A DNA stretch of 64,000 nt, taken from a phage. Below, in pieces: positions 382-41,530 of this stretch. Both the position numbers and the translations under genes were made by a program. The stretch lies in sequence record NC_100371.1; one strand, 5' to 3'. How positions within the stretch are numbered: position 1 is the first letter of the stretch; every line of letters begins with the position of its first letter. The notes beneath the pieces were generated by a model. The model saw nothing but the letters and a program-made list of their open reading frames with translations, did not search any database and was not told the origin of the DNA.

Positions 382-855
382 TTATTCCTGCTCTTCCGGA
401 GTCTGATCCAGATTGTTCACCTGCTGGATCATACCCATCTGCTGTAACATCTCCAGAAGGCTTCCTAAACCGTCTTGTGTGAAAAAACAGCCGTAGTTAA
501 CCTCCAGAACCTTACCTGCCAGCTTAATCATCTCCAGCAGATGCCCTGCAAACACAACATCAGGGTTAAGCTTATCCACACCATCCACGGTAATATCTTC
601 GAACAAGATTTTAAATAACTCTTCAATAGAGTTATCATCAAGTTCTTGGAACAGGTAAGCCAGGGCTGTAGGAAGGACCTCTGCCATATTCTGACCGCCT
701 GAGAGAATAGATCCACCGATAGCACCTAGTGGGACAGCCACAATCTTACCGATTTTAGGCATGTTTTTCATTGCTTTCATCGGTCCCCAGTGAGTGATCA
801 CAAAGTTGTGCCCTGCTAAATCAATCTCTGTTGTAGGTCTAAAGTTTATAGCCAT
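382..855 (-). CDS. putative tail assembly chaperone
   Basis: 157-aa acidic protein immediately downstream of tail tube gene, own RBS (AAGGA) and promoter; assignment by gene order only. Confidence 0.4.
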   Translation of the reverse strand: MAINFRPTTEIDLAGHNFVITHWGPMKAMKNMPKIGKIVAVPLGAIGGSILSGGQNMAEVLPTALAYLFQELDDNSIEELFKILFEDITVDGVDKLNPDVVFAGHLLEMIKLAGKVLEVNYGCFFTQDGLGSLLEMLQQMGMIQQVNNLDQTPEEQE

Positions 856-898
856 TTTATAGCATCCTTATTAGTCATGTTGTGCACCATATTTGTGT

Positions 899-927
899 AT
901 TTTACCATGATTATAATGCATTGTCAA
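899..927 (-). promoter_or_regulatory. sigma70-like promoter (TTGACA-N17-TAAAAT) upstream of tail chaperone gene
   Basis: minus-strand TTGACA at 927-922 and TAAAAT at 904-899 with 17-nt spacer. Confidence 0.5.
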
Positions 928-971
928 TTTAACCTTTCAAGCAATCCAAAAATGGTGTGTCAAAACCATAA

Positions 972-1001
972 AAGCAAAAAGCCCCACCCGAAGGTGAGGC
1001 T
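972..1001 (-). terminator. Rho-independent terminator after tail tube gene
   Basis: minus-strand hairpin GCCTCACC-ttcg-GGTGGGGC followed by TTTTTGCTTTT. Confidence 0.6.
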
Positions 1002-1018
1002 TATACTAAAGTGTGCCC

Positions 1019-1492
1019 TTAGATAATGCCTGCAAGACCTGCGAGGCCAGTGAGAGCACCAGTGATGTTGTCACGGTTGAGCCATGCATCCAGAATACCG
1101 ATATCCCAGTCCAGCTGACCTACTTCGGTTCCGTAAGTGAGGTCAGGCTGTTTTTGGATCCAACCGATTGTAGCAATACCAGGACCCTGGCTACCTTCCA
1201 GCAGAACCGGGAAGAATACCAGACCAGTAATAGATGCCTGTTTCTGCCAGTCAGAAAGGTAAGCGTTCCATACAGAAGTGTTCTGCAAAGACACAGTCAT
1301 AACACCGGATTGGTTACGAGACAGGGCCGCAGACATTTCGCCATCCACACCAACATGAGGGTAGATGTTGTCTTCGTTTCTTGAAACAACGATCTTGGTG
1401 TCAGCAGCGAAGCCAGTGACACGCTGCTGCATCAGGTACAGTTTGACCTTTTTAGGGTCATAAGCATAAGGAGTTAAAATTTGAGTTTCCAT
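1019..1492 (-). CDS. tail tube protein
   Basis: 157-aa ORF directly downstream of the sheath gene in the sheath-tube order typical of contractile tails. Confidence 0.55.
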   Translation of the reverse strand: METQILTPYAYDPKKVKLYLMQQRVTGFAADTKIVVSRNEDNIYPHVGVDGEMSAALSRNQSGVMTVSLQNTSVWNAYLSDWQKQASITGLVFFPVLLEGSQGPGIATIGWIQKQPDLTYGTEVGQLDWDIGILDAWLNRDNITGALTGLAGLAGII

Positions 1493-1502
1493 CTAGTCTT
1501 CC

Positions 1503-2879
1503 TTATTCAGTCATTGCAACAGCATTGGTGGATTTAGAACCAACTTTGTCCAGAAGGACGTTGATCCGGATACGAACGAAGTGCAGGGCGTTGTTATACA
1601 CCAGTTCTACTTTCACACCTTCCAGAACACGAGCAGCCAACTGATTGGTTGGGATCTCTGCACGTTTAGGAACTGTGATAATCGGGTCGTAGAACACATT
1701 GTTGTCTTCGTCAAAACCTGTCAGGATCGCGCCATTCTTAATGCCAGTATTGATCGGGTTGTTCATCAGAACAGACTTGATAACCGGAAGATCATCATCA
1801 GACATCTTCATGCTTAAACCCATATTGGAGCGGCGATGCATGTACCCAAACATGGATTCTTCAGATCTGAACTTGATCCAGTGTGCAAAACGAATAGCGT
1901 CTGCATACTGACCTGAAGCACACTTACCTTCCCAGAAAGCGCCAACACCGTTAATCATTCTGTAGAAGTTAACGTGGTTTTCCCAAATCGCCATACGCTG
2001 AGTTAAAGTCAGAGATGGTGCAATCACACCCGGCATCTGTTTTAAGTGCAAGCTGTCACCGTAGGACGGATCGTTGGATGCCATAGCACCTATGATACCA
2101 CCCTCCGGGAAGTCCTTATCTGCACGAGGATCGTACATGCCAACACTGTCATATTGTGCAGCTTTCAGTTTGGTAGCGATGTTGCTATCTTTGCCAGTCA
2201 CATCTTCTGCAGTAGAGTAGACGTGCAGCTTGTAGTTGGCCTGAGCCCACTTAGCACATGCTTCAATGTCGGTGTGGTCTTCATGGCACAGGAAGTACCA
2301 ATTGTCCCGCTCAGCATTGATCTTATCAACTACTGTAGAAGGTTTTTCAGAATTGGCGATATTCTTGATTGTATAGTTACCAGTATGATAACCAACAGTG
2401 CAGTTACCAGTGATGGTGATAACACCTTCTTCAGCCTCTACAGTGATACCGTCCAAATTATCATCTGCTTCGATTTTAGTCTTCATTGACTCTGCAATCT
2501 GAGTTGCACCTGTTCCACCAGAGATAGGCACTATCAGAGAGGTATTGTAGCCACCTTTTGCAATAGTCATTACGACATCGGTATCGGCTGCGGCAGCAAT
2601 ACCTTTAAAGTCTACAGTGGTTTTTTCTTTGGCCTGTCTGCCGATCATAACATATTGTGGAGGGAATACACCACCAAAAGCTTTTGCTGCAAACTCATAC
2701 GCTGCAGAGCCTTGTGCGAAACCATCTTCCACCATCTGATCCAGCTCCGCATATACGCGAGCTCGCTCAGTAAAGTTGTTGTGGATAGCGATGAACAGGG
2801 GAGTTTCGAAACCTACAGTGTCAATAGGTTGGGTTCCGAGGTTAACTGTAACATCTACCACTTTATCTAAATATGGCAT
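1503..2879 (-). CDS. tail sheath protein
   Basis: 458-aa ORF of sheath-like size and composition, followed by the tube gene, strong RBS. Confidence 0.7.
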   Translation of the reverse strand: MPYLDKVVDVTVNLGTQPIDTVGFETPLFIAIHNNFTERARVYAELDQMVEDGFAQGSAAYEFAAKAFGGVFPPQYVMIGRQAKEKTTVDFKGIAAAADTDVVMTIAKGGYNTSLIVPISGGTGATQIAESMKTKIEADDNLDGITVEAEEGVITITGNCTVGYHTGNYTIKNIANSEKPSTVVDKINAERDNWYFLCHEDHTDIEACAKWAQANYKLHVYSTAEDVTGKDSNIATKLKAAQYDSVGMYDPRADKDFPEGGIIGAMASNDPSYGDSLHLKQMPGVIAPSLTLTQRMAIWENHVNFYRMINGVGAFWEGKCASGQYADAIRFAHWIKFRSEESMFGYMHRRSNMGLSMKMSDDDLPVIKSVLMNNPINTGIKNGAILTGFDEDNNVFYDPIITVPKRAEIPTNQLAARVLEGVKVELVYNNALHFVRIRINVLLDKVGSKSTNAVAMTE

Positions 2880-37958: not shown

Positions 37959-38237
37959 ATGAGCTGTGAAAAATCTTTTTTCATTATCATCTACGGTAAG
38001 GATAACTGCCCACATTGTGTAAGAGCAAAAGAATTTGCAGCAAGCAAAGGTATACCTTTCGTATACAAGACGCTCGGTGAAGGATACACAAAAGAAGAGC
38101 TTATTGAGAAGTGTAGTCCATTTGTTCCCAGAACGTTGCCTCAGATCTTCTTGGAAAGCAACCTTGATAGTGTCCACATAGGTGGTGCTGACGATTTCAT
38201 CTCTTTTGTTAAGAATGGTTTTGGAGAGAAAAAGTGA
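37959..38237 (+). CDS. glutaredoxin (NrdH/NrdC-like redoxin)
   Basis: 92 aa with CPHC active site (YGKDNCPHCVRAKEF). Confidence 0.7.
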   Translation: MSCEKSFFIIIYGKDNCPHCVRAKEFAASKGIPFVYKTLGEGYTKEELIEKCSPFVPRTLPQIFLESNLDSVHIGGADDFISFVKNGFGEKK

Positions 38238-40357
38238 AAGTTGTAAAACGGGACGGTAGAGAAGAGGTCTATAACGGAGTTAAGGTAATCAAGGCGGCAG
38301 AGTCCGCCTTACTTGAGTCTGGGCATACTGAAGAAGAAGCTTACCGGATCGCTTGTGCGGTTAATGAAGTTGTTGCCAACAATCTACCAACCGACCAGTG
38401 CACGATCTCTGTAAAAAATATCCATATCCTTGTTGAAGATGCTCTTATGGATATGGGTTTAAAATGTGCAGCCAGAGAATATATCCAGTATAGACAGACA
38501 AGAGATAATAACAGAGAGGCAGGTGGAAAACTGCTTGCAGATATTAGTGGCTTCTTGGATCGAACTTGTGATGAATTTACAAAAGAAAACGCAAATAAGC
38601 CCACTAATCATGTACATACTCATCGTGACCTGCTTGCAGGTATCCTTAGCAAACACCTTGCATCAACACAGATACTGCCAGATCGTGTCTCCGAAGAGCA
38701 CAACAAGGGATTCATCCATGTGCATGATCTTGACTATCTGATCAGTCCGTTAACAAACTGCTGTTTGGTGAATTATCCGGATATGCTGGAAAACGGATTC
38801 AACATTGGCAACGCCCATGTCAGTAAGCCGAAGTCAATAGGGGTTGCAACAACAATCCTCAGCCAAATCTCTAGTGCAGTAGCTAGTGCTCAATATGGTG
38901 GTCAGACCATGAGCCATATTGATCATTATCTGGCGCAGTATGCTGAAGCAACCTATGAGAAGAATCTTAAATTTTGTCAGGAACATTGGTTGCCGGATGC
39001 TGAGACTGTTGCAATGCAAATGACGGATAAAGACGTGTTTGATAGTATGCAAACTTTGCTATACCAAATCAATACGTTAACTTCTGTCAACGGGCAAACC
39101 CCATTCATCACATTAAGTTTAGGACTGGATACCTCAATCTTTGGTAGAATGATTACCAAAAACTACCTGAAAGTCCACAAAATGGGTCTTGGTGAAGAAC
39201 GTATCACACCTGTGTTCCCTAAGGTGCTGTTCTTCCTGGAGGAAGGTATCAACATGAACCCCGGGGATCCTAACTATGATTTGAAACGATTAGCTCTGGA
39301 ATGCTCTGCAGAGCGGATTTATCCTGACTTCGTATCTGTACCACTAAATAGAAAAGTGACAGGTTCAACAGAAGGTAATGTCACAAGCATGGGTTGCCGG
39401 AGTTTTCTTAGCAAATACAATGACTTGGAAACAGGAGAGGAGAAATACCTTGGCAGATTTAACTTAGGTGTTGTTAGCCTTAACCTACCAATGATTGCGG
39501 CAAAAGCTAAAACGGAAGGTGTTGATTTCTTTGCAGTTCTTGACGAGTACTTGGATCTGGCATACGAGGCTCACCTTGTAAGGGTTAACCGTCTAAAAGG
39601 AACAAAGGCAGGGCAGAACCCCATCATGTGGTGTGAAGGAGCTCTTGCTCGCCTGGATCCTGAAGAGAGTATTGATAAACTCTTCTATGACGGGTATGCT
39701 TCCATAAGTATTGGATATATTGGTGTGTATGAAACCTGCCAGATTTTAGGCAGAGAGGGAGACAAGTCCTTAGCTCTTGGGATCCTTCAGCACATGAAAG
39801 ACGCTTGTGATCGGTACAAAAAAGAAAGTGGTCTGGCATTCAGCTTGTACGGCACTCCTTCAGAGAGCTTGTGCTATAAGGCTGCAACATGTCTAGATCG
39901 TGAATATCCTGAAGTGTTGAAGCACGAGCACGAATACCTTACCAACAGTTTCCACCAGCCCGTGTGGATCAATAGCTCACCTTTTGACAAGTGGAAGTAT
40001 GAGGAAGGTTTTGCTATGATCTCTTCTGGCGGTAACATTGGATACATAGAAACACCTAACCTGAAAAACAACCTGGATGCTTTGGAATCCCTTGTCGATT
40101 TCGGGTATAAACACATTATGTATTTTGGTATTAACCAACCTGTGGATAAATGTCTTAAGTGCGGATTCTCTGGTGAGTTCAGTGCAACAGCTAAAGGCTT
40201 TGTATGCCCAGAGTGCGGAAACCATGAAGAGGGAACGATCAGTGTGATTAGACGTGTATCTGGGTATCTGTCCAGTCCAAACTCCCGACCTTACAACAAA
40301 GGTAAGCAAGCGGAAGTTATAGAACGGGTTAAGCACTACGGAAGCTGTGGTTGCTGA
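38234..40357 (+). CDS. nrdD: anaerobic ribonucleoside-triphosphate reductase
   Basis: 707 aa; C-terminal glycyl-radical motif RRVSGYL and Zn-ribbon CPECG; GTG start overlapping upstream stop. Confidence 0.85.
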   Translation: MKVVKRDGREEVYNGVKVIKAAESALLESGHTEEEAYRIACAVNEVVANNLPTDQCTISVKNIHILVEDALMDMGLKCAAREYIQYRQTRDNNREAGGKLLADISGFLDRTCDEFTKENANKPTNHVHTHRDLLAGILSKHLASTQILPDRVSEEHNKGFIHVHDLDYLISPLTNCCLVNYPDMLENGFNIGNAHVSKPKSIGVATTILSQISSAVASAQYGGQTMSHIDHYLAQYAEATYEKNLKFCQEHWLPDAETVAMQMTDKDVFDSMQTLLYQINTLTSVNGQTPFITLSLGLDTSIFGRMITKNYLKVHKMGLGEERITPVFPKVLFFLEEGINMNPGDPNYDLKRLALECSAERIYPDFVSVPLNRKVTGSTEGNVTSMGCRSFLSKYNDLETGEEKYLGRFNLGVVSLNLPMIAAKAKTEGVDFFAVLDEYLDLAYEAHLVRVNRLKGTKAGQNPIMWCEGALARLDPEESIDKLFYDGYASISIGYIGVYETCQILGREGDKSLALGILQHMKDACDRYKKESGLAFSLYGTPSESLCYKAATCLDREYPEVLKHEHEYLTNSFHQPVWINSSPFDKWKYEEGFAMISSGGNIGYIETPNLKNNLDALESLVDFGYKHIMYFGINQPVDKCLKCGFSGEFSATAKGFVCPECGNHEEGTISVIRRVSGYLSSPNSRPYNKGKQAEVIERVKHYGSCGC

Positions 40358-40420
40358 TACTTGACAAAAGCCACAAGGATGTGGCATATTGTTGTTACAC
40401 AGTAAACTAGGAGGTGCAGT

Positions 40421-40537
40421 ATGTCGTCAGGTATTTATAAAATTTGCAAGTGTGGTTGTCATTGCAATCTTCGTTGGTGCAAGGCACTGGATGATTTTAT
40501 TTGGCATTGTCCTAAATGTGATGCGGAGTACTTATGA
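40421..40537 (+). CDS. small Cys-rich zinc-ribbon-like protein (38 aa)
   Basis: GGAGGTG RBS then MSSGIYKICKCGCHCNLRWCKALDDFIWHCPKCDAEYL; stop overlaps nrdG ATG (ATGA). Confidence 0.4.
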   Translation: MSSGIYKICKCGCHCNLRWCKALDDFIWHCPKCDAEYL

Positions 40538-41007
40538 ATATTGTCGGATACACAGAAATATCCTACACCGAAGGGCCAGGTCTCAGGACGGCCTTGTGGG
40601 TATCTGGGTGCCCACACGCTTGTCCTGGTTGCTTTAATCAAGCATTTTGGTCCAAAGATAAGGGAAGAGAATTCACCGAAGAAGATTTGCAGAGAATTTT
40701 GTCAGATTTGGACAATGAATCTATATGCGGTATTTCTTTGCTTGGTGGAGAGCCTTTGGCTACGTATAATGAGCCCGGTATTATTAAACTTATGAGGAGA
40801 ATTAAGGAAAAGTTTGGTGACAAGAAAACTATTCTTGTGTATACTGGGTTCACATTTGAGCATATCTCTAGTGATGTTCTTGAGCTGGCTGATATCATCA
40901 TTGATGGCAAGTATGTAAAAGATTTACCAACAAAGAAATCATTCCGAGGCAGCGATAACCAAAGAATGTTTAAAAAGGTAGCAGGCGGTTGGGTTCAGGT
41001 TGACTAA
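40534..41007 (+). CDS. nrdG: anaerobic ribonucleotide reductase activating protein (radical SAM)
   Basis: 157 aa with CPHACPGC (CxxxCxxC) radical-SAM cluster motif, downstream of nrdD. Confidence 0.85.
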   Translation: MNIVGYTEISYTEGPGLRTALWVSGCPHACPGCFNQAFWSKDKGREFTEEDLQRILSDLDNESICGISLLGGEPLATYNEPGIIKLMRRIKEKFGDKKTILVYTGFTFEHISSDVLELADIIIDGKYVKDLPTKKSFRGSDNQRMFKKVAGGWVQVD

Positions 41008-41009
41008 TC

Positions 41010-41039
41010 GTTGACAAAGCTTTGGTAAGTTGGTTATAA
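41010..41039 (+). promoter_or_regulatory. sigma70-like promoter (TTGACA-N18-TATAAT)
   Basis: TTGACA at 41010-41015, TATAAT at 41034-41039. Confidence 0.55.
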
Positions 41040-41069
41040 TTATCGTAATGAAAGCAGAGGAGGTGCCAA

Positions 41070-41183
41070 ATGGCTAAAAAAGCCTTGAAGAAGGCGTACA
41101 AGAAAGAGATTGCGCTTGAGCTTAAGAAAAAACACAAGCGTGAAAAGAAATATCATGAAGATGTAGAGGGGGTGCAACAGTGA
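41070..41183 (+). CDS. small lysine-rich basic protein (37 aa)
   Basis: GAGGAGGTG RBS then MAKKALKKAYKKEIALELKKKHKREKKYHEDVEGVQQ; stop overlaps next start (GTGA). Confidence 0.35.
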   Translation: MAKKALKKAYKKEIALELKKKHKREKKYHEDVEGVQQ

Positions 41184-41530
41184 CACAAGAGCGTATTGAT
41201 TTAGCCAGTAAGTTTGTAGATCTCATTTTGCCACGGTTGGTTACTCAACATGCAGACGCTATTTCTACTAATCTTGATGGCTTACGCCTAATGCTGAACC
41301 GAACAGATGACCCACGTATTCGGGCCGATTTAGAGGCCTCTGCCAACAAACTGGAAAAGTTCTTGCAAGTAGACACGCAAGAAGCCTTGCACAAGATTAT
41401 GGTGGAAGGTTTCTCTAAAGAATTCACCGTTAAAGAGCTTAAGGAGCTGATCCGCCAAGAAGAGATGAATATCCGAGTTCAGGCTGTTGCAAGCAGCATG
41501 GAAGCGGCTATTGAAAAACTGTTGCAGTAA
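41180..41530 (+). CDS. hypothetical protein
   Basis: 116-aa ORF, GTG start, helical composition. Confidence 0.4.
   Translation: MTQERIDLASKFVDLILPRLVTQHADAISTNLDGLRLMLNRTDDPRIRADLEASANKLEKFLQVDTQEALHKIMVEGFSKEFTVKELKELIRQEEMNIRVQAVASSMEAAIEKLLQ

What the first reader, a model, noticed from the sequence alone, without database searches (positions are those of the whole stretch)
40421..40537. Unannotated 38-codon Cys-rich ORF translationally coupled between nrdD and nrdG
A strong RBS (GGAGGTG) precedes MSSGIYKICKCGCHCNLRWCKALDDFIWHCPKCDAEYL, whose stop overlaps the nrdG start (ATGA). Eight Cys plus His residues suggest a small metal-binding ribbon. Its position inside the anaerobic RNR operon suggests an accessory role. 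It falls below the ORF-track length cut-off, which instead reports a conflicting 82-aa frame.
Basis: seen in the sequence. Interest (0 to 1): 0.4.

Follow-up and report, generated by a model that had tools for sequence, protein, structure and literature searches.

The report
Tiny zinc-ribbon gene upstream of nrdG
A real, strongly conserved 38-codon gene for a cysteine-rich mini zinc-ribbon protein sits just ahead of nrdG in rV5-like coliphages, but the same gene also occurs in SP6-like phages that have no ribonucleotide reductase, so it looks like a portable accessory gene, not a reductase subunit.

Summary
The ORF at 40421..40537 (+) is exactly as described: AGGAGG 6 nt upstream, and a stop that overlaps the nrdG start (ATGA). 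It has 7 Cys, not 8. The window is a Vequintavirus (rV5-like) genome.

The ORF is a genuine gene. It is intact in about 120 relatives. Variation is mostly at third codon positions (18/27, against 3/27 at second positions), with pS up to 0.9 against pN of at most 0.11. It is 79-84% identical in phages whose NrdG is only 53-57% identical. The competing 82-aa frame is broken in every relative below 99.8% identity.

It is not unannotated. Many GenBank records call it a hypothetical protein, and PHROG 20137 labels it "ribonucleotide reductase", apparently after its neighbours. The rV5 type record calls the wrong frame.

The fold prediction and motifs indicate a zinc ribbon with three extra invariant Cys.

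The proposed RNR accessory role is weakened by three observations:
- An 85%-identical copy lies in front of DNA ligase in nrd-less SP6-like Vectrevirus phages, in a slot that other small genes occupy in sister phages.
- In 33 Vequintavirus genomes, including rV5, it is intact but separated from a replaced nrdG.
- Other phage groups have no counterpart.

Function is unknown. The interest is modest.

The parts
40421..40537 (+). 38-codon CDS for a Cys-rich mini zinc-ribbon protein (PHROG 20137 family). The seven Cys (C9, C11, C13, C15, C20, C30, C33) are invariant, as are NLRW, LDD, IW, CPxC and EYL.
   Evidence: sequence; PHROG, E=4.6e-30; homologues and invariant columns; omega well below 1; 18/27 third positions vary against 3/27 second positions; zinc-ribbon-like model.
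40409..40414 (+). Shine-Dalgarno AGGAGG, 6 nt upstream of the ATG.
   Evidence: An AGGAG(G) is kept at the same distance in all Vequintavirus-like loci, whatever lies upstream (nrdD end or a homing-endonuclease gene).
40361..40390 (+). Sigma-70-like promoter match TTGACA-N18-CATATT (TG-extended) in the nrdD-ORF spacer. Function is not shown.
   Evidence: 10/12 match. The region total of 15 sites is not above the shuffle expectation of 12.9. The sequence is conserved in relatives without an endonuclease insertion.
40370..40385 (.). 6-bp hairpin GCCACA-AGGA-TGTGGC inside the spacer. Its role is unknown (a weak terminator or a stability element).
   Evidence: conserved.
40525..40528 (+). GGAG inside codons Ala35-Glu36, 5 nt before the nrdG ATG. 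It is a Shine-Dalgarno for the downstream gene embedded in the small ORF.
   Evidence: GCGGAGTA or ACGGAGTA is invariant in all 16 loci, including the Vectrevirus copies upstream of ligase.
40534..40537 (+). ATGA stop/start overlap between the small ORF and nrdG.
   Evidence: The same overlap occurs onto nrdG in L006, L008 and L011 and onto DNA ligase in Vectrevirus.
40534..41007 (+). nrdG (class III RNR activase, radical SAM).
   Evidence: Fer4_12 E=3e-43, Radical_SAM.
38234..40357 (+). nrdD (class III RNR; ATP-cone, NRDD, glycyl-radical domain with a C-terminal Zn ribbon). It is uninterrupted in this window.
   Evidence: NRDD E=2.8e-161.
40389..40637 (+). 82-aa TTG ORF in another frame. It is spurious.
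   Evidence: it contains 1-6 stop codons in all 14 loci examined other than the window itself and the 99.8%-identical ECP32.

Best explanation
40421..40537 encodes a genuine, expressed 38-residue stand-alone zinc-ribbon protein. The likely Zn(Cys)4 site is formed by the C9/C11 knuckle and the C30-P-K-C33 knuckle. Three further invariant cysteines (C13, C15, C20) may build a second or shared metal site.

It behaves as a self-contained, portable accessory cassette made of just the ORF. The cassette is slotted immediately in front of a nucleotide- or DNA-metabolism gene, so that its last codons supply that gene's Shine-Dalgarno (GGAG) and its stop overlaps that gene's ATG. The downstream gene is nrdG in most Vequintavirus and DNA ligase in some Vectrevirus.

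Being too small for catalysis, it most likely acts by binding a partner. The partner could be a protein or nucleic acid of the host, or of the phage replication or nucleotide machinery. It is probably not a dedicated subunit of the phage anaerobic ribonucleotide reductase.

Shown: coding status, conservation, motif pattern, distribution, and independence from phage nrd genes and from nrdG coupling.
Inferred: zinc binding, expression, and the binding-module mode of action. The target is unknown.
For: Coding:
- The ORF is intact in 16/16 loci and in about 119 full-length tblastn matches among about 121 Vequintavirus records.
- Nei-Gojobori on the 27-codon core gives pS 0.14-0.93 against pN 0-0.11.
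- Variable columns by codon position are 9/3/18, and the other two frames contain stops.
- The protein is 79-84% identical where NrdG is 53-57% and NrdD 70-85% identical.
- The RBS is retained in every context.

Fold:
- The invariant columns include C, CG, C, C, C and CPxC.
- The AF2 model has strands 16-20, 25-30 and 35-37, with pLDDT 69.
- The top Foldseek neighbours are zinc ribbons (Rpb9, ZifS 8yoz, the N-terminal ribbon of Nudix 3cng), with TMq about 0.7 and rmsd 1.1-1.5 A over 32-34 residues.
- The eL43 ribbon shares the string IWHCPKC.

Portable and not RNR-bound:
- Homologues lie between the nucleotide kinase and DNA ligase in Vectrevirus ACG-C91 and in contig L007.
- DNA similarity (85% over 111 nt) is confined to the ORF plus ATGAATAT, and ACG-C91 has no NrdD, NrdG or NrdB.
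- The same slot is empty in LL11. It holds an unrelated 38-aa zinc ribbon in K1E and a 57-aa non-Cys protein in vB_EcoP_B.
- 33 Vequintavirus records, including rV5, keep the ORF but have a replaced nrdG about 385 bp away, with the breakpoint exactly at the ORF's stop.
Against: - No experiment or expression data were found.
- Metal binding is untested.
- The AF2 confidence is only moderate and the Foldseek E-values (0.5-1) are not significant for so small a domain.
- In every Vequintavirus-like genome the gene stays between nrdD and nrdG, even across deep divergence. This is also what an RNR-linked function would predict.
- The E. coli host of the Vectrevirus phages has its own NrdDG, so an RNR-related target is not excluded.
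- The family is tiny (14 clusters at 90% identity, 2 representatives at 50% identity). There are therefore only two independent contexts.
Confidence: 0.55

Rival explanations
1. Dedicated accessory factor of the class III (anaerobic) ribonucleotide reductase. It would be a rubredoxin- or desulforedoxin-like Fe(Cys)4 or Fe-S mini-protein, or a metallochaperone. It would reduce or load the [4Fe-4S] cluster of NrdG, or stabilise the NrdD Zn-ribbon/glycyl-radical domain. In Vectrevirus it would act on the host NrdDG.
For: - The position between nrdD and nrdG is invariant in all Vequintavirus-like genomes, including clades with NrdG at 53-57% identity.
- There is a stop/start overlap with nrdG in about 80 records.
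- Seven invariant Cys is more than one Zn site needs.
- Aerobic RNRs have precedents for small accessory redox proteins: NrdH, NrdI and YfaE (established knowledge).
Against: - It is present in nrd-less Vectrevirus, directly coupled to DNA ligase.
- In 33 genomes it is unlinked from nrdG. It stays 95% identical to the window while NrdG is only 53% identical, so it does not co-vary with NrdG.
- There is no counterpart in Justusliebigvirus, where nrdD and nrdG overlap directly, nor in Felixounavirus, KVP40 or Slopekvirus.
- There is no Pfam rubredoxin hit or any other Pfam hit.
- No fusion to NrdD or NrdG was found anywhere among 1.8e9 representative proteins.
Confidence: 0.2
2. The ORF matters only as a translated leader. 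It would deliver ribosomes to the downstream start by termination-reinitiation, and the peptide itself would have no function.
For: - The ATGA overlap and the embedded GGAG are conserved in both contexts.
- The Vectrevirus slot accepts unrelated small ORFs with the same overlap.
Against: - There is strong amino-acid-level purifying selection along the whole core, including 7 invariant Cys and 2 invariant Trp, with synonymous sites near saturation.
- The ORF is retained intact in 33 genomes where it no longer abuts nrdG.
- In LL11 the ligase start sits 2 nt after the kinase stop, and in Justusliebigvirus nrdD and nrdG overlap directly. Neither has a leader ORF.
Confidence: 0.05
3. NrdR mimic or decoy. 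A free zinc ribbon would compete with the host repressor NrdR (zinc ribbon plus ATP-cone) at NrdR boxes. This would derepress the host nrd operons and raise dNTP supply, which would be useful to phages with or without their own RNR.
For: Only conceptual: it would explain the presence in both phage families and the placement among nucleotide-metabolism genes.
Against:
- No Pfam family, NrdR-type ribbon or otherwise, is hit at E<=1.
- No NrdR structure appears among the 50 Foldseek neighbours listed.
Confidence: 0.03
4. Chance ORF or non-coding spacer. The 82-aa overlapping frame, or no frame at all, would be the real feature.
For: Short ORFs are abundant in this AT-rich genome. The rV5 type record annotates the other frame.
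Against: - The alternative frame has 1-6 stops in all 14 loci examined other than the window itself and the 99.8%-identical ECP32.
- The Cys-rich frame is always open, with third-position-dominated variation.
Confidence: 0.01

Closest known systems
PHROG phrog_20137 (labelled 'ribonucleotide reductase') and the GenBank 'hypothetical protein' entries, e.g. QDB73735 (ECP32), YP_008530353 (JES2013), QXV81303 (Bas53 JohannBauhin)
   Same: It is the same family. The match is full-length (1-38 of a 38-position profile) at E=4.6e-30, with identical or 92-100% identical proteins at the same position.
   Different: The label 'ribonucleotide reductase' appears to come from the neighbouring genes. There is no similarity to any RNR domain. 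No function has been tested.
Classical zinc ribbons (Rpb9/TFIIS-type ribbons, ribosomal eL43/L37ae, the N-terminal ribbon of Nudix 3cng)
   Same: - Two Cys knuckles flank a three-stranded antiparallel sheet.
- The second knuckle has the CPxC form.
- Structural superposition gives TMq about 0.7 and rmsd 1.1-1.5 A.
- eL43 shares the string IWHCPKC.
   Different: - It is stand-alone and only 38 aa.
- The first knuckle is CxC in most members (CxxC in the 41-54 aa variants).
- There are three additional invariant Cys.
- There is no significant sequence homology (E 0.14-7.5).
Stand-alone prokaryotic mini zinc-finger proteins (Thermus ZifS TTHA0897, PDB 8yoz; Haloferax small CPxCG-related proteins such as HVO_0758, PDB 8q5b)
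   Same: They are very small free-standing Cys4 ribbon proteins. ZifS is among the best structural neighbours. HVO_0758 gives weak hits (E=0.14 in PDB, 0.42 in NCBIfam).
   Different: No homology is demonstrated. Those are cellular proteins, whereas this family is confined to coliphages.
C-terminal Zn(Cys)4 ribbon of NrdD itself (window residues about 639-670)
   Same: It has the same knuckle register (KCxKCG ... F/W-x-CPxC) and is encoded about 200 nt upstream.
   Different: hhalign probability is only 10.7%, with 21% identity over 28 columns. This is generic ribbon similarity and is not evidence of duplication.
Small accessory redox proteins of RNRs (NrdH, NrdI, YfaE) and rubredoxin/desulforedoxin
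   Same: They are small, operon-embedded, and rich in Cys or metal (established knowledge).
   Different: - There is no sequence or fold match.
- Those proteins serve class I RNRs.
- This gene also occurs without any phage RNR.
Other occupants of the Vectrevirus kinase-ligase slot (K1E 38-aa ribbon MTCPNCG...; vB_EcoP_B 57-aa protein, phrog_15259)
   Same: They have the same insertion point, the same ATGA overlap onto ligase, and similar size. The K1E occupant is also a Cys4 ribbon.
   Different: Their sequences are unrelated. They illustrate a variable accessory-gene slot and do not form a family with this gene.

Membership tests
PHROG 20137 / Vequintavirus small Cys-rich protein family | Full-length, significant match to the family profile | tested here: met
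   E=4.6e-30, residues 1-38 on profile positions 1-38 of 38. 92-100% identical proteins occur in about 119 phage records.
Zinc ribbon fold | Two Cys-Cys knuckles (CxxC or CPxC type) separated by a beta-hairpin | tested here: met
   C9-x(1-2)-C11-G and C30-P-x-C33 are invariant in 13 sequences, although the first knuckle is CxC, not CxxC, in most members. The AF2 strands at 16-20, 25-30 and 35-37 lie between and after the knuckles.
Zinc ribbon fold | Significant structural similarity to solved zinc ribbons | tested here: inconclusive
   The top 30 Foldseek hits are almost all zinc ribbons, with TMq 0.65-0.74. However, E is 0.5-5 and the model pLDDT is 69.
Zinc ribbon fold | Stoichiometric Zn(II) bound by four Cys | not testable with these tools
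   This needs metal analysis of purified protein.
Ribonucleotide reductase (as labelled in RefSeq and PHROGs) | Homology to an RNR catalytic, radical-generating or activase domain | tested here: not met
   There are no Pfam hits at E<=1. The only NCBIfam hit is ribosomal L37ae at E=4.3. Only generic ribbon similarity to the NrdD C-terminus was found.
Dedicated class III RNR accessory protein | Co-occurrence with nrdD/nrdG wherever the gene is found | tested here: not met
   Vectrevirus ACG-C91 has the gene (E=6e-18) but no NrdD, NrdG or NrdB (best E 0.02-0.36). L007 shows the same context.
Dedicated class III RNR accessory protein | A counterpart in other phage or bacterial nrdDG operons | tested here: not met
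   nrdD and nrdG overlap directly in Justusliebigvirus. Unrelated non-Cys ORFs fill the interval in Felixounavirus, KVP40 and Slopekvirus. There were no hits in 185,579 bacterial and archaeal genomes.
Dedicated class III RNR accessory protein | Physical or functional interaction with NrdG or NrdD | not testable with these tools
   No multimer prediction or assay is available.
Rubredoxin / desulforedoxin | Match to the rubredoxin family profile (CxxCG ... CPxCG with about 29-residue spacing) | tested here: not met
   There is no Pfam hit. The knuckle spacing here is about 18 residues.
Known anti-defence or defence proteins | Match to PADLOC models | tested here: not met
   0 families at E<=10. 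PADLOC covers defence systems, so this says little about anti-defence function.

The most novel reading that the evidence does not exclude
The 7-Cys mini-protein is the missing small redox or metal partner of the class III ribonucleotide reductase system, a counterpart of NrdI/YfaE/NrdH for the anaerobic enzyme. It would donate an electron or a metal to the NrdG [4Fe-4S] activase, or guard the NrdD Zn-ribbon/glycyl-radical domain. It would work on the host NrdDG as well, which would explain its presence in nrd-less SP6-like phages.
Probability: 0.12. Interest if true: 0.7.

Novelty: new member of a known kind. Interest (0 to 1): 0.25.

Why it matters
There are three reasons.

1. It is a clean example of a sub-40-codon phage gene that ORF-length cut-offs miss. 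The rV5 type-genome annotation replaced it with a wrong-frame ORF. Databases then named it 'ribonucleotide reductase', apparently after its neighbours. Correcting this prevents the error from propagating.

2. The gene is shared, as a bare ORF-sized cassette, between unrelated myophages and podophages of E. coli. In both it plugs in front of a nucleotide- or DNA-metabolism gene with a stop/start overlap. This illustrates how tiny accessory genes move and are expressed.

3. If the minority reading is right (a partner of class III RNR, or a host-directed binder such as an anti-defence factor), the protein would be an experimentally easy 38-residue handle on that biology.

As it stands, the function is unknown and the finding is of modest interest.

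Tried and rejected
I used a 3-sequence alignment instead.
- Spurious hits were discarded. L014 lies inside a tail-fibre-like gene. L023 is a high-GC bacterial contig with no matching ORF. P0015 is a repetitive 248-aa protein.
- The genome-contig scan found no relative in bacterial or archaeal genomes.
- No Pfam, NCBIfam or PADLOC family matched. The PDB sequence search gave only weak knuckle matches.
- Duplication of the NrdD C-terminal ribbon was considered. hhalign probability was 10.7%, so there is no support for it.
- The NrdR zinc-ribbon mimic idea was considered. Probability was 3.5% and only the knuckle matched.
- I looked for analogous small Cys-rich ORFs between nrdD and nrdG in Felixounavirus, KVP40, Slopekvirus and Justusliebigvirus. 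None were found.
- Literature searches found no description of the ORF, and the rV5 genome paper does not mention it.
- The promoter-like site upstream is a consensus match only. The region total of 15 sites is not above the shuffle expectation of 12.9.
- No complex prediction with NrdG, NrdD or ligase was attempted. The structure tool takes one protein or one alignment, so a complex cannot be modelled.

Full report
**Observation**

The window is a Vequintavirus (rV5-like E. coli myophage). The nrdD-nrdG stretch is 99.8% identical to phage vB_EcoM-ECP32 and 92-99% identical to about 120 other records.

Its features are:
- AGGAGG at 40409-40414, 6 nt before the ATG.
- A stop codon that overlaps the nrdG start (ATGA, 40534-40537).
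- nrdD (38234..40357) upstream, carrying the ATP-cone, NRDD and glycyl-radical domains.
- nrdG (40534..41007) downstream, a Fer4_12/radical-SAM activase.

Three details need correcting:
- The peptide has 7 Cys and 2 His, not 8 Cys.
- It is coupled to nrdG only. A 63-nt spacer separates it from nrdD. The spacer holds a promoter-like TTGACA-N18-CATATT match and a 6-bp hairpin.
- It is not unannotated in public data (see "Is it known?" below).

**Is it a gene?**

Yes. The evidence is as follows.

- Across 16 loci (the window, GenBank phages, and IMG/VR, ENA and Logan contigs) the frame is always open. The competing 82-aa frame (40389..40637) contains 1-6 stops in all 14 loci examined other than the window itself and the 99.8%-identical ECP32.
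- In the 27-codon core, 18 of 27 third positions vary, against 9 first and 3 second positions. The other two frames contain stops.
- Nei-Gojobori counts give pS 0.14-0.93 against pN 0-0.11, so omega is roughly 0.02-0.2 where it can be computed.
- In a divergent Vequintavirus-like clade (L006, L008, L011) NrdG is only 53-57% identical to the window and NrdD 70-85%. The small protein is 79-84% identical.
- An AGGAG Shine-Dalgarno is kept at the same distance whatever lies upstream.
- Within the 64-kb window it is the only ATG-initiated 25-90 aa Cys-rich ORF with a strong SD.

**Is it known?**

- Many GenBank records call it a CDS. It is 'hypothetical protein' in ECP32 and in Bas53 JohannBauhin, and 'ribonucleotide reductase' in RefSeq JES2013, FFH2 and V18.
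- It matches PHROG 20137 end to end at E=4.6e-30. That PHROG is labelled 'ribonucleotide reductase'. The label appears to come from the neighbouring genes, because there is no Pfam, NCBIfam or PADLOC hit.
- The type phage rV5 record (DQ832317) annotates the wrong frame as ORF 114 and omits the Cys-rich ORF. The rV5 genome paper (PMC3606486) does not mention it.

**Family and anatomy**

The family is very small.
- There are 14 clusters among 5.8 billion proteins.
- An exhaustive HMM scan of 1.8 billion representatives found two representative clusters at 50% identity.
- Nothing was found in 185,579 bacterial and archaeal genomes.

Variants are 36, 38, 41 and 53-54 aa long. The long forms add a Lys/Glu-rich N-terminal tail, and the 41-54 aa forms have CxxC where the window has CxC.

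The invariant columns are C9, K10, C11, G12, C13, C15, L17, R18, W19, C20, L23, D24, D25, I27, W28, C30, P31, C33, E36, Y37 and L38. His14 is variable, and His29 is Tyr in several members, so neither is a conserved ligand.

Structure prediction gave these results:
- AF2 with the 13-sequence alignment predicts a three-stranded sheet with pLDDT 69.
- Its best PDB neighbours are zinc ribbons: Rpb9, Thermus ZifS (8yoz) and the N-terminal ribbon of Nudix 3cng. TMq is about 0.7 and rmsd 1.1-1.5 A, but the E-values of 0.5-1 are not significant.

The most economical reading is a Zn(Cys)4 ribbon built from the two knuckles. The three further invariant Cys have an unknown role.

**Context: the key result**

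*1. The gene also occurs outside RNR operons.*

- A 36-aa homologue (77% aa identity) lies in the SP6-like podophage vB_EcoP_ACG-C91 (Vectrevirus), and another lies in a Logan contig (L007). In both it sits between the gp1.7-like nucleotide kinase and the ATP-dependent DNA ligase. It again has an ATGA overlap onto the downstream gene.
- The DNA similarity to the window is 85% over 111 nt. It is confined to the ORF plus the first 8 nt (ATGAATAT) of the downstream gene.
- ACG-C91 has no NrdD, NrdG or NrdB homologue.
- In sister Vectrevirus genomes the same junction is variable. It is empty in LL11. It holds an unrelated 38-aa Cys4 ribbon in K1E (KY435490) and a 57-aa non-Cys protein in vB_EcoP_B. 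All occupants overlap the ligase ATG.
- This is therefore a variable accessory-gene slot, and the gene of interest is one interchangeable occupant.

*2. Coupling to nrdG is not required.*

- In 33 Vequintavirus records, including rV5 and A147, nrdG has been replaced by a 53%-identical allele. The replacement came with 34-aa and 78-aa ORFs.
- The small ORF stays intact (95% identical to the window) about 385 bp upstream of nrdG.
- The homology breakpoint falls exactly at the small ORF's stop.

*3. Other phage groups have no counterpart.*

- In Justusliebigvirus, nrdD and nrdG overlap directly.
- In Felixounavirus, KVP40 and Slopekvirus the interval holds unrelated, non-Cys ORFs.
- The nrdD-to-small-ORF spacer is also a landing site for free-standing homing endonucleases.

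**Mechanism**

What the evidence shows is a real, selected, portable mini-gene. Its 3' end doubles as the translation-initiation region of the next gene: a GGAG lies in codons 35-36, and the stop overlaps the next start.

What I infer is a metal-stabilised ribbon that works by binding a partner. The invariant surface (NLRW, LDDxIW, EYL) is the likely contact. The target could be a host or phage component of nucleotide or DNA metabolism, or a host defence or takeover target. This cannot be decided here.

The rivals compare as follows:
- **Dedicated RNR accessory role.** This remains possible, because synteny is fixed in all Vequintavirus-like genomes and the host of the Vectrevirus phages has NrdDG. 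It is disfavoured by the ligase context, by the lack of co-variation with NrdG, and by the absence of any counterpart elsewhere.
- **Leader-only role.** This is contradicted by selection at the amino-acid level and by retention of the ORF where it is uncoupled from nrdG.
- **Duplication of the NrdD ribbon, or mimicry of the NrdR ribbon.** Neither found support.

**Verdict**

The 'anaerobic RNR accessory' part is not supported by distribution.

The gene is catalogued but uncharacterised, and it is mislabelled in PHROGs and RefSeq. It is a new member of a familiar kind, the stand-alone phage zinc-ribbon mini-protein. Interest is 0.25.

Noticed in passing
window 38234..40357; relatives; L006 1687..4936; L008 1..4270: nrdD is uninterrupted in this window. 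Many Vequintavirus relatives (FV3, slur16, FFH2, nomo and others) carry an insertion of about 800 bp with an HNH endonuclease that splits nrdD in two. Divergent relatives have nrdD in 2-3 pieces with NUMOD4/HNH_3 genes between them.
   Followed up: partly
L005 279..1439; L009 1982..2947; L008 4279..4971; L011 2411..2920 (equivalent to window about 40358-40408): The spacer between nrdD and the small ORF is a recurrent landing site for different free-standing homing-endonuclease genes of 386, 321, 230 and 169 aa. The 386-, 321- and 230-aa genes match PHROG 681/559/99 endonuclease/HNH families; the 230-aa gene also has DUF723/HNH_3 domains. These genes replace the promoter-like and hairpin sequence but keep the small ORF's RBS.
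   Followed up: partly
L009 3117..3974; L027 (rV5) 833..1514; breakpoint equivalent to window 40535-40537: 33 Vequintavirus records, including the type phage rV5, have a module swap. The new module has a 34-aa ORF, a 78-aa ORF (phrog_3249, mislabelled 'putative minor capsid protein') and an nrdG allele only 53% identical to the window's. The recombination breakpoint is exactly at the stop of the small ORF.
   Followed up: partly
L027 636..863 (rV5 DQ832317 ORF 114); window 40389..40637: The rV5 type record annotates the wrong-frame ORF, which is the homologue of the window's spurious 82-aa frame, in place of the Cys-rich gene. PHROG 20137 ('ribonucleotide reductase') and PHROG 13972 ('DNA ligase') are tiny zinc-ribbon families that appear to be named after their neighbours.
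   Followed up: yes
L015 673..789 (K1E KY435490); L016 673..846 (vB_EcoP_B); L017 660..680 (LL11): The nucleotide-kinase/DNA-ligase junction of Vectrevirus phages is a variable slot. It is either empty or holds one of at least three unrelated small genes, two of them Cys4 ribbons. Each overlaps the ligase ATG by ATGA. The 8-nt ATGAATAT shared by the ligase and nrdG starts may have served as microhomology for cassette transfer (speculative).
   Followed up: partly
window 41011..41530: A perfect TTGACA-N18-TATAAT promoter match (41011-41040) precedes a conserved 37-aa Lys-rich ORF (41070..41183, phrog_7670). That ORF's stop overlaps the GTG start of a 116-aa ORF (41180..41530, phrog_7650). Both have unknown function.
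   Followed up: no
P0004 (phage vB_Eco_Alma, 61 aa); P0014 (62 aa, ENA contig): Two aberrant family members were found. One has a C-terminal frameshift read-through. The other fuses the small ORF's N-terminal half (up to RWC) to the C-terminal half of the 78-aa ORF, which implies a deletion between them. These may be genuine disruptions or assembly errors.
   Followed up: no
and records MG0656xx: About 18 GenBank records named 'Campylobacter phage' (marked UNVERIFIED) are ordinary Vequintavirus genomes, 92% identical to this E. coli phage window. The host label is probably wrong.
   Followed up: no
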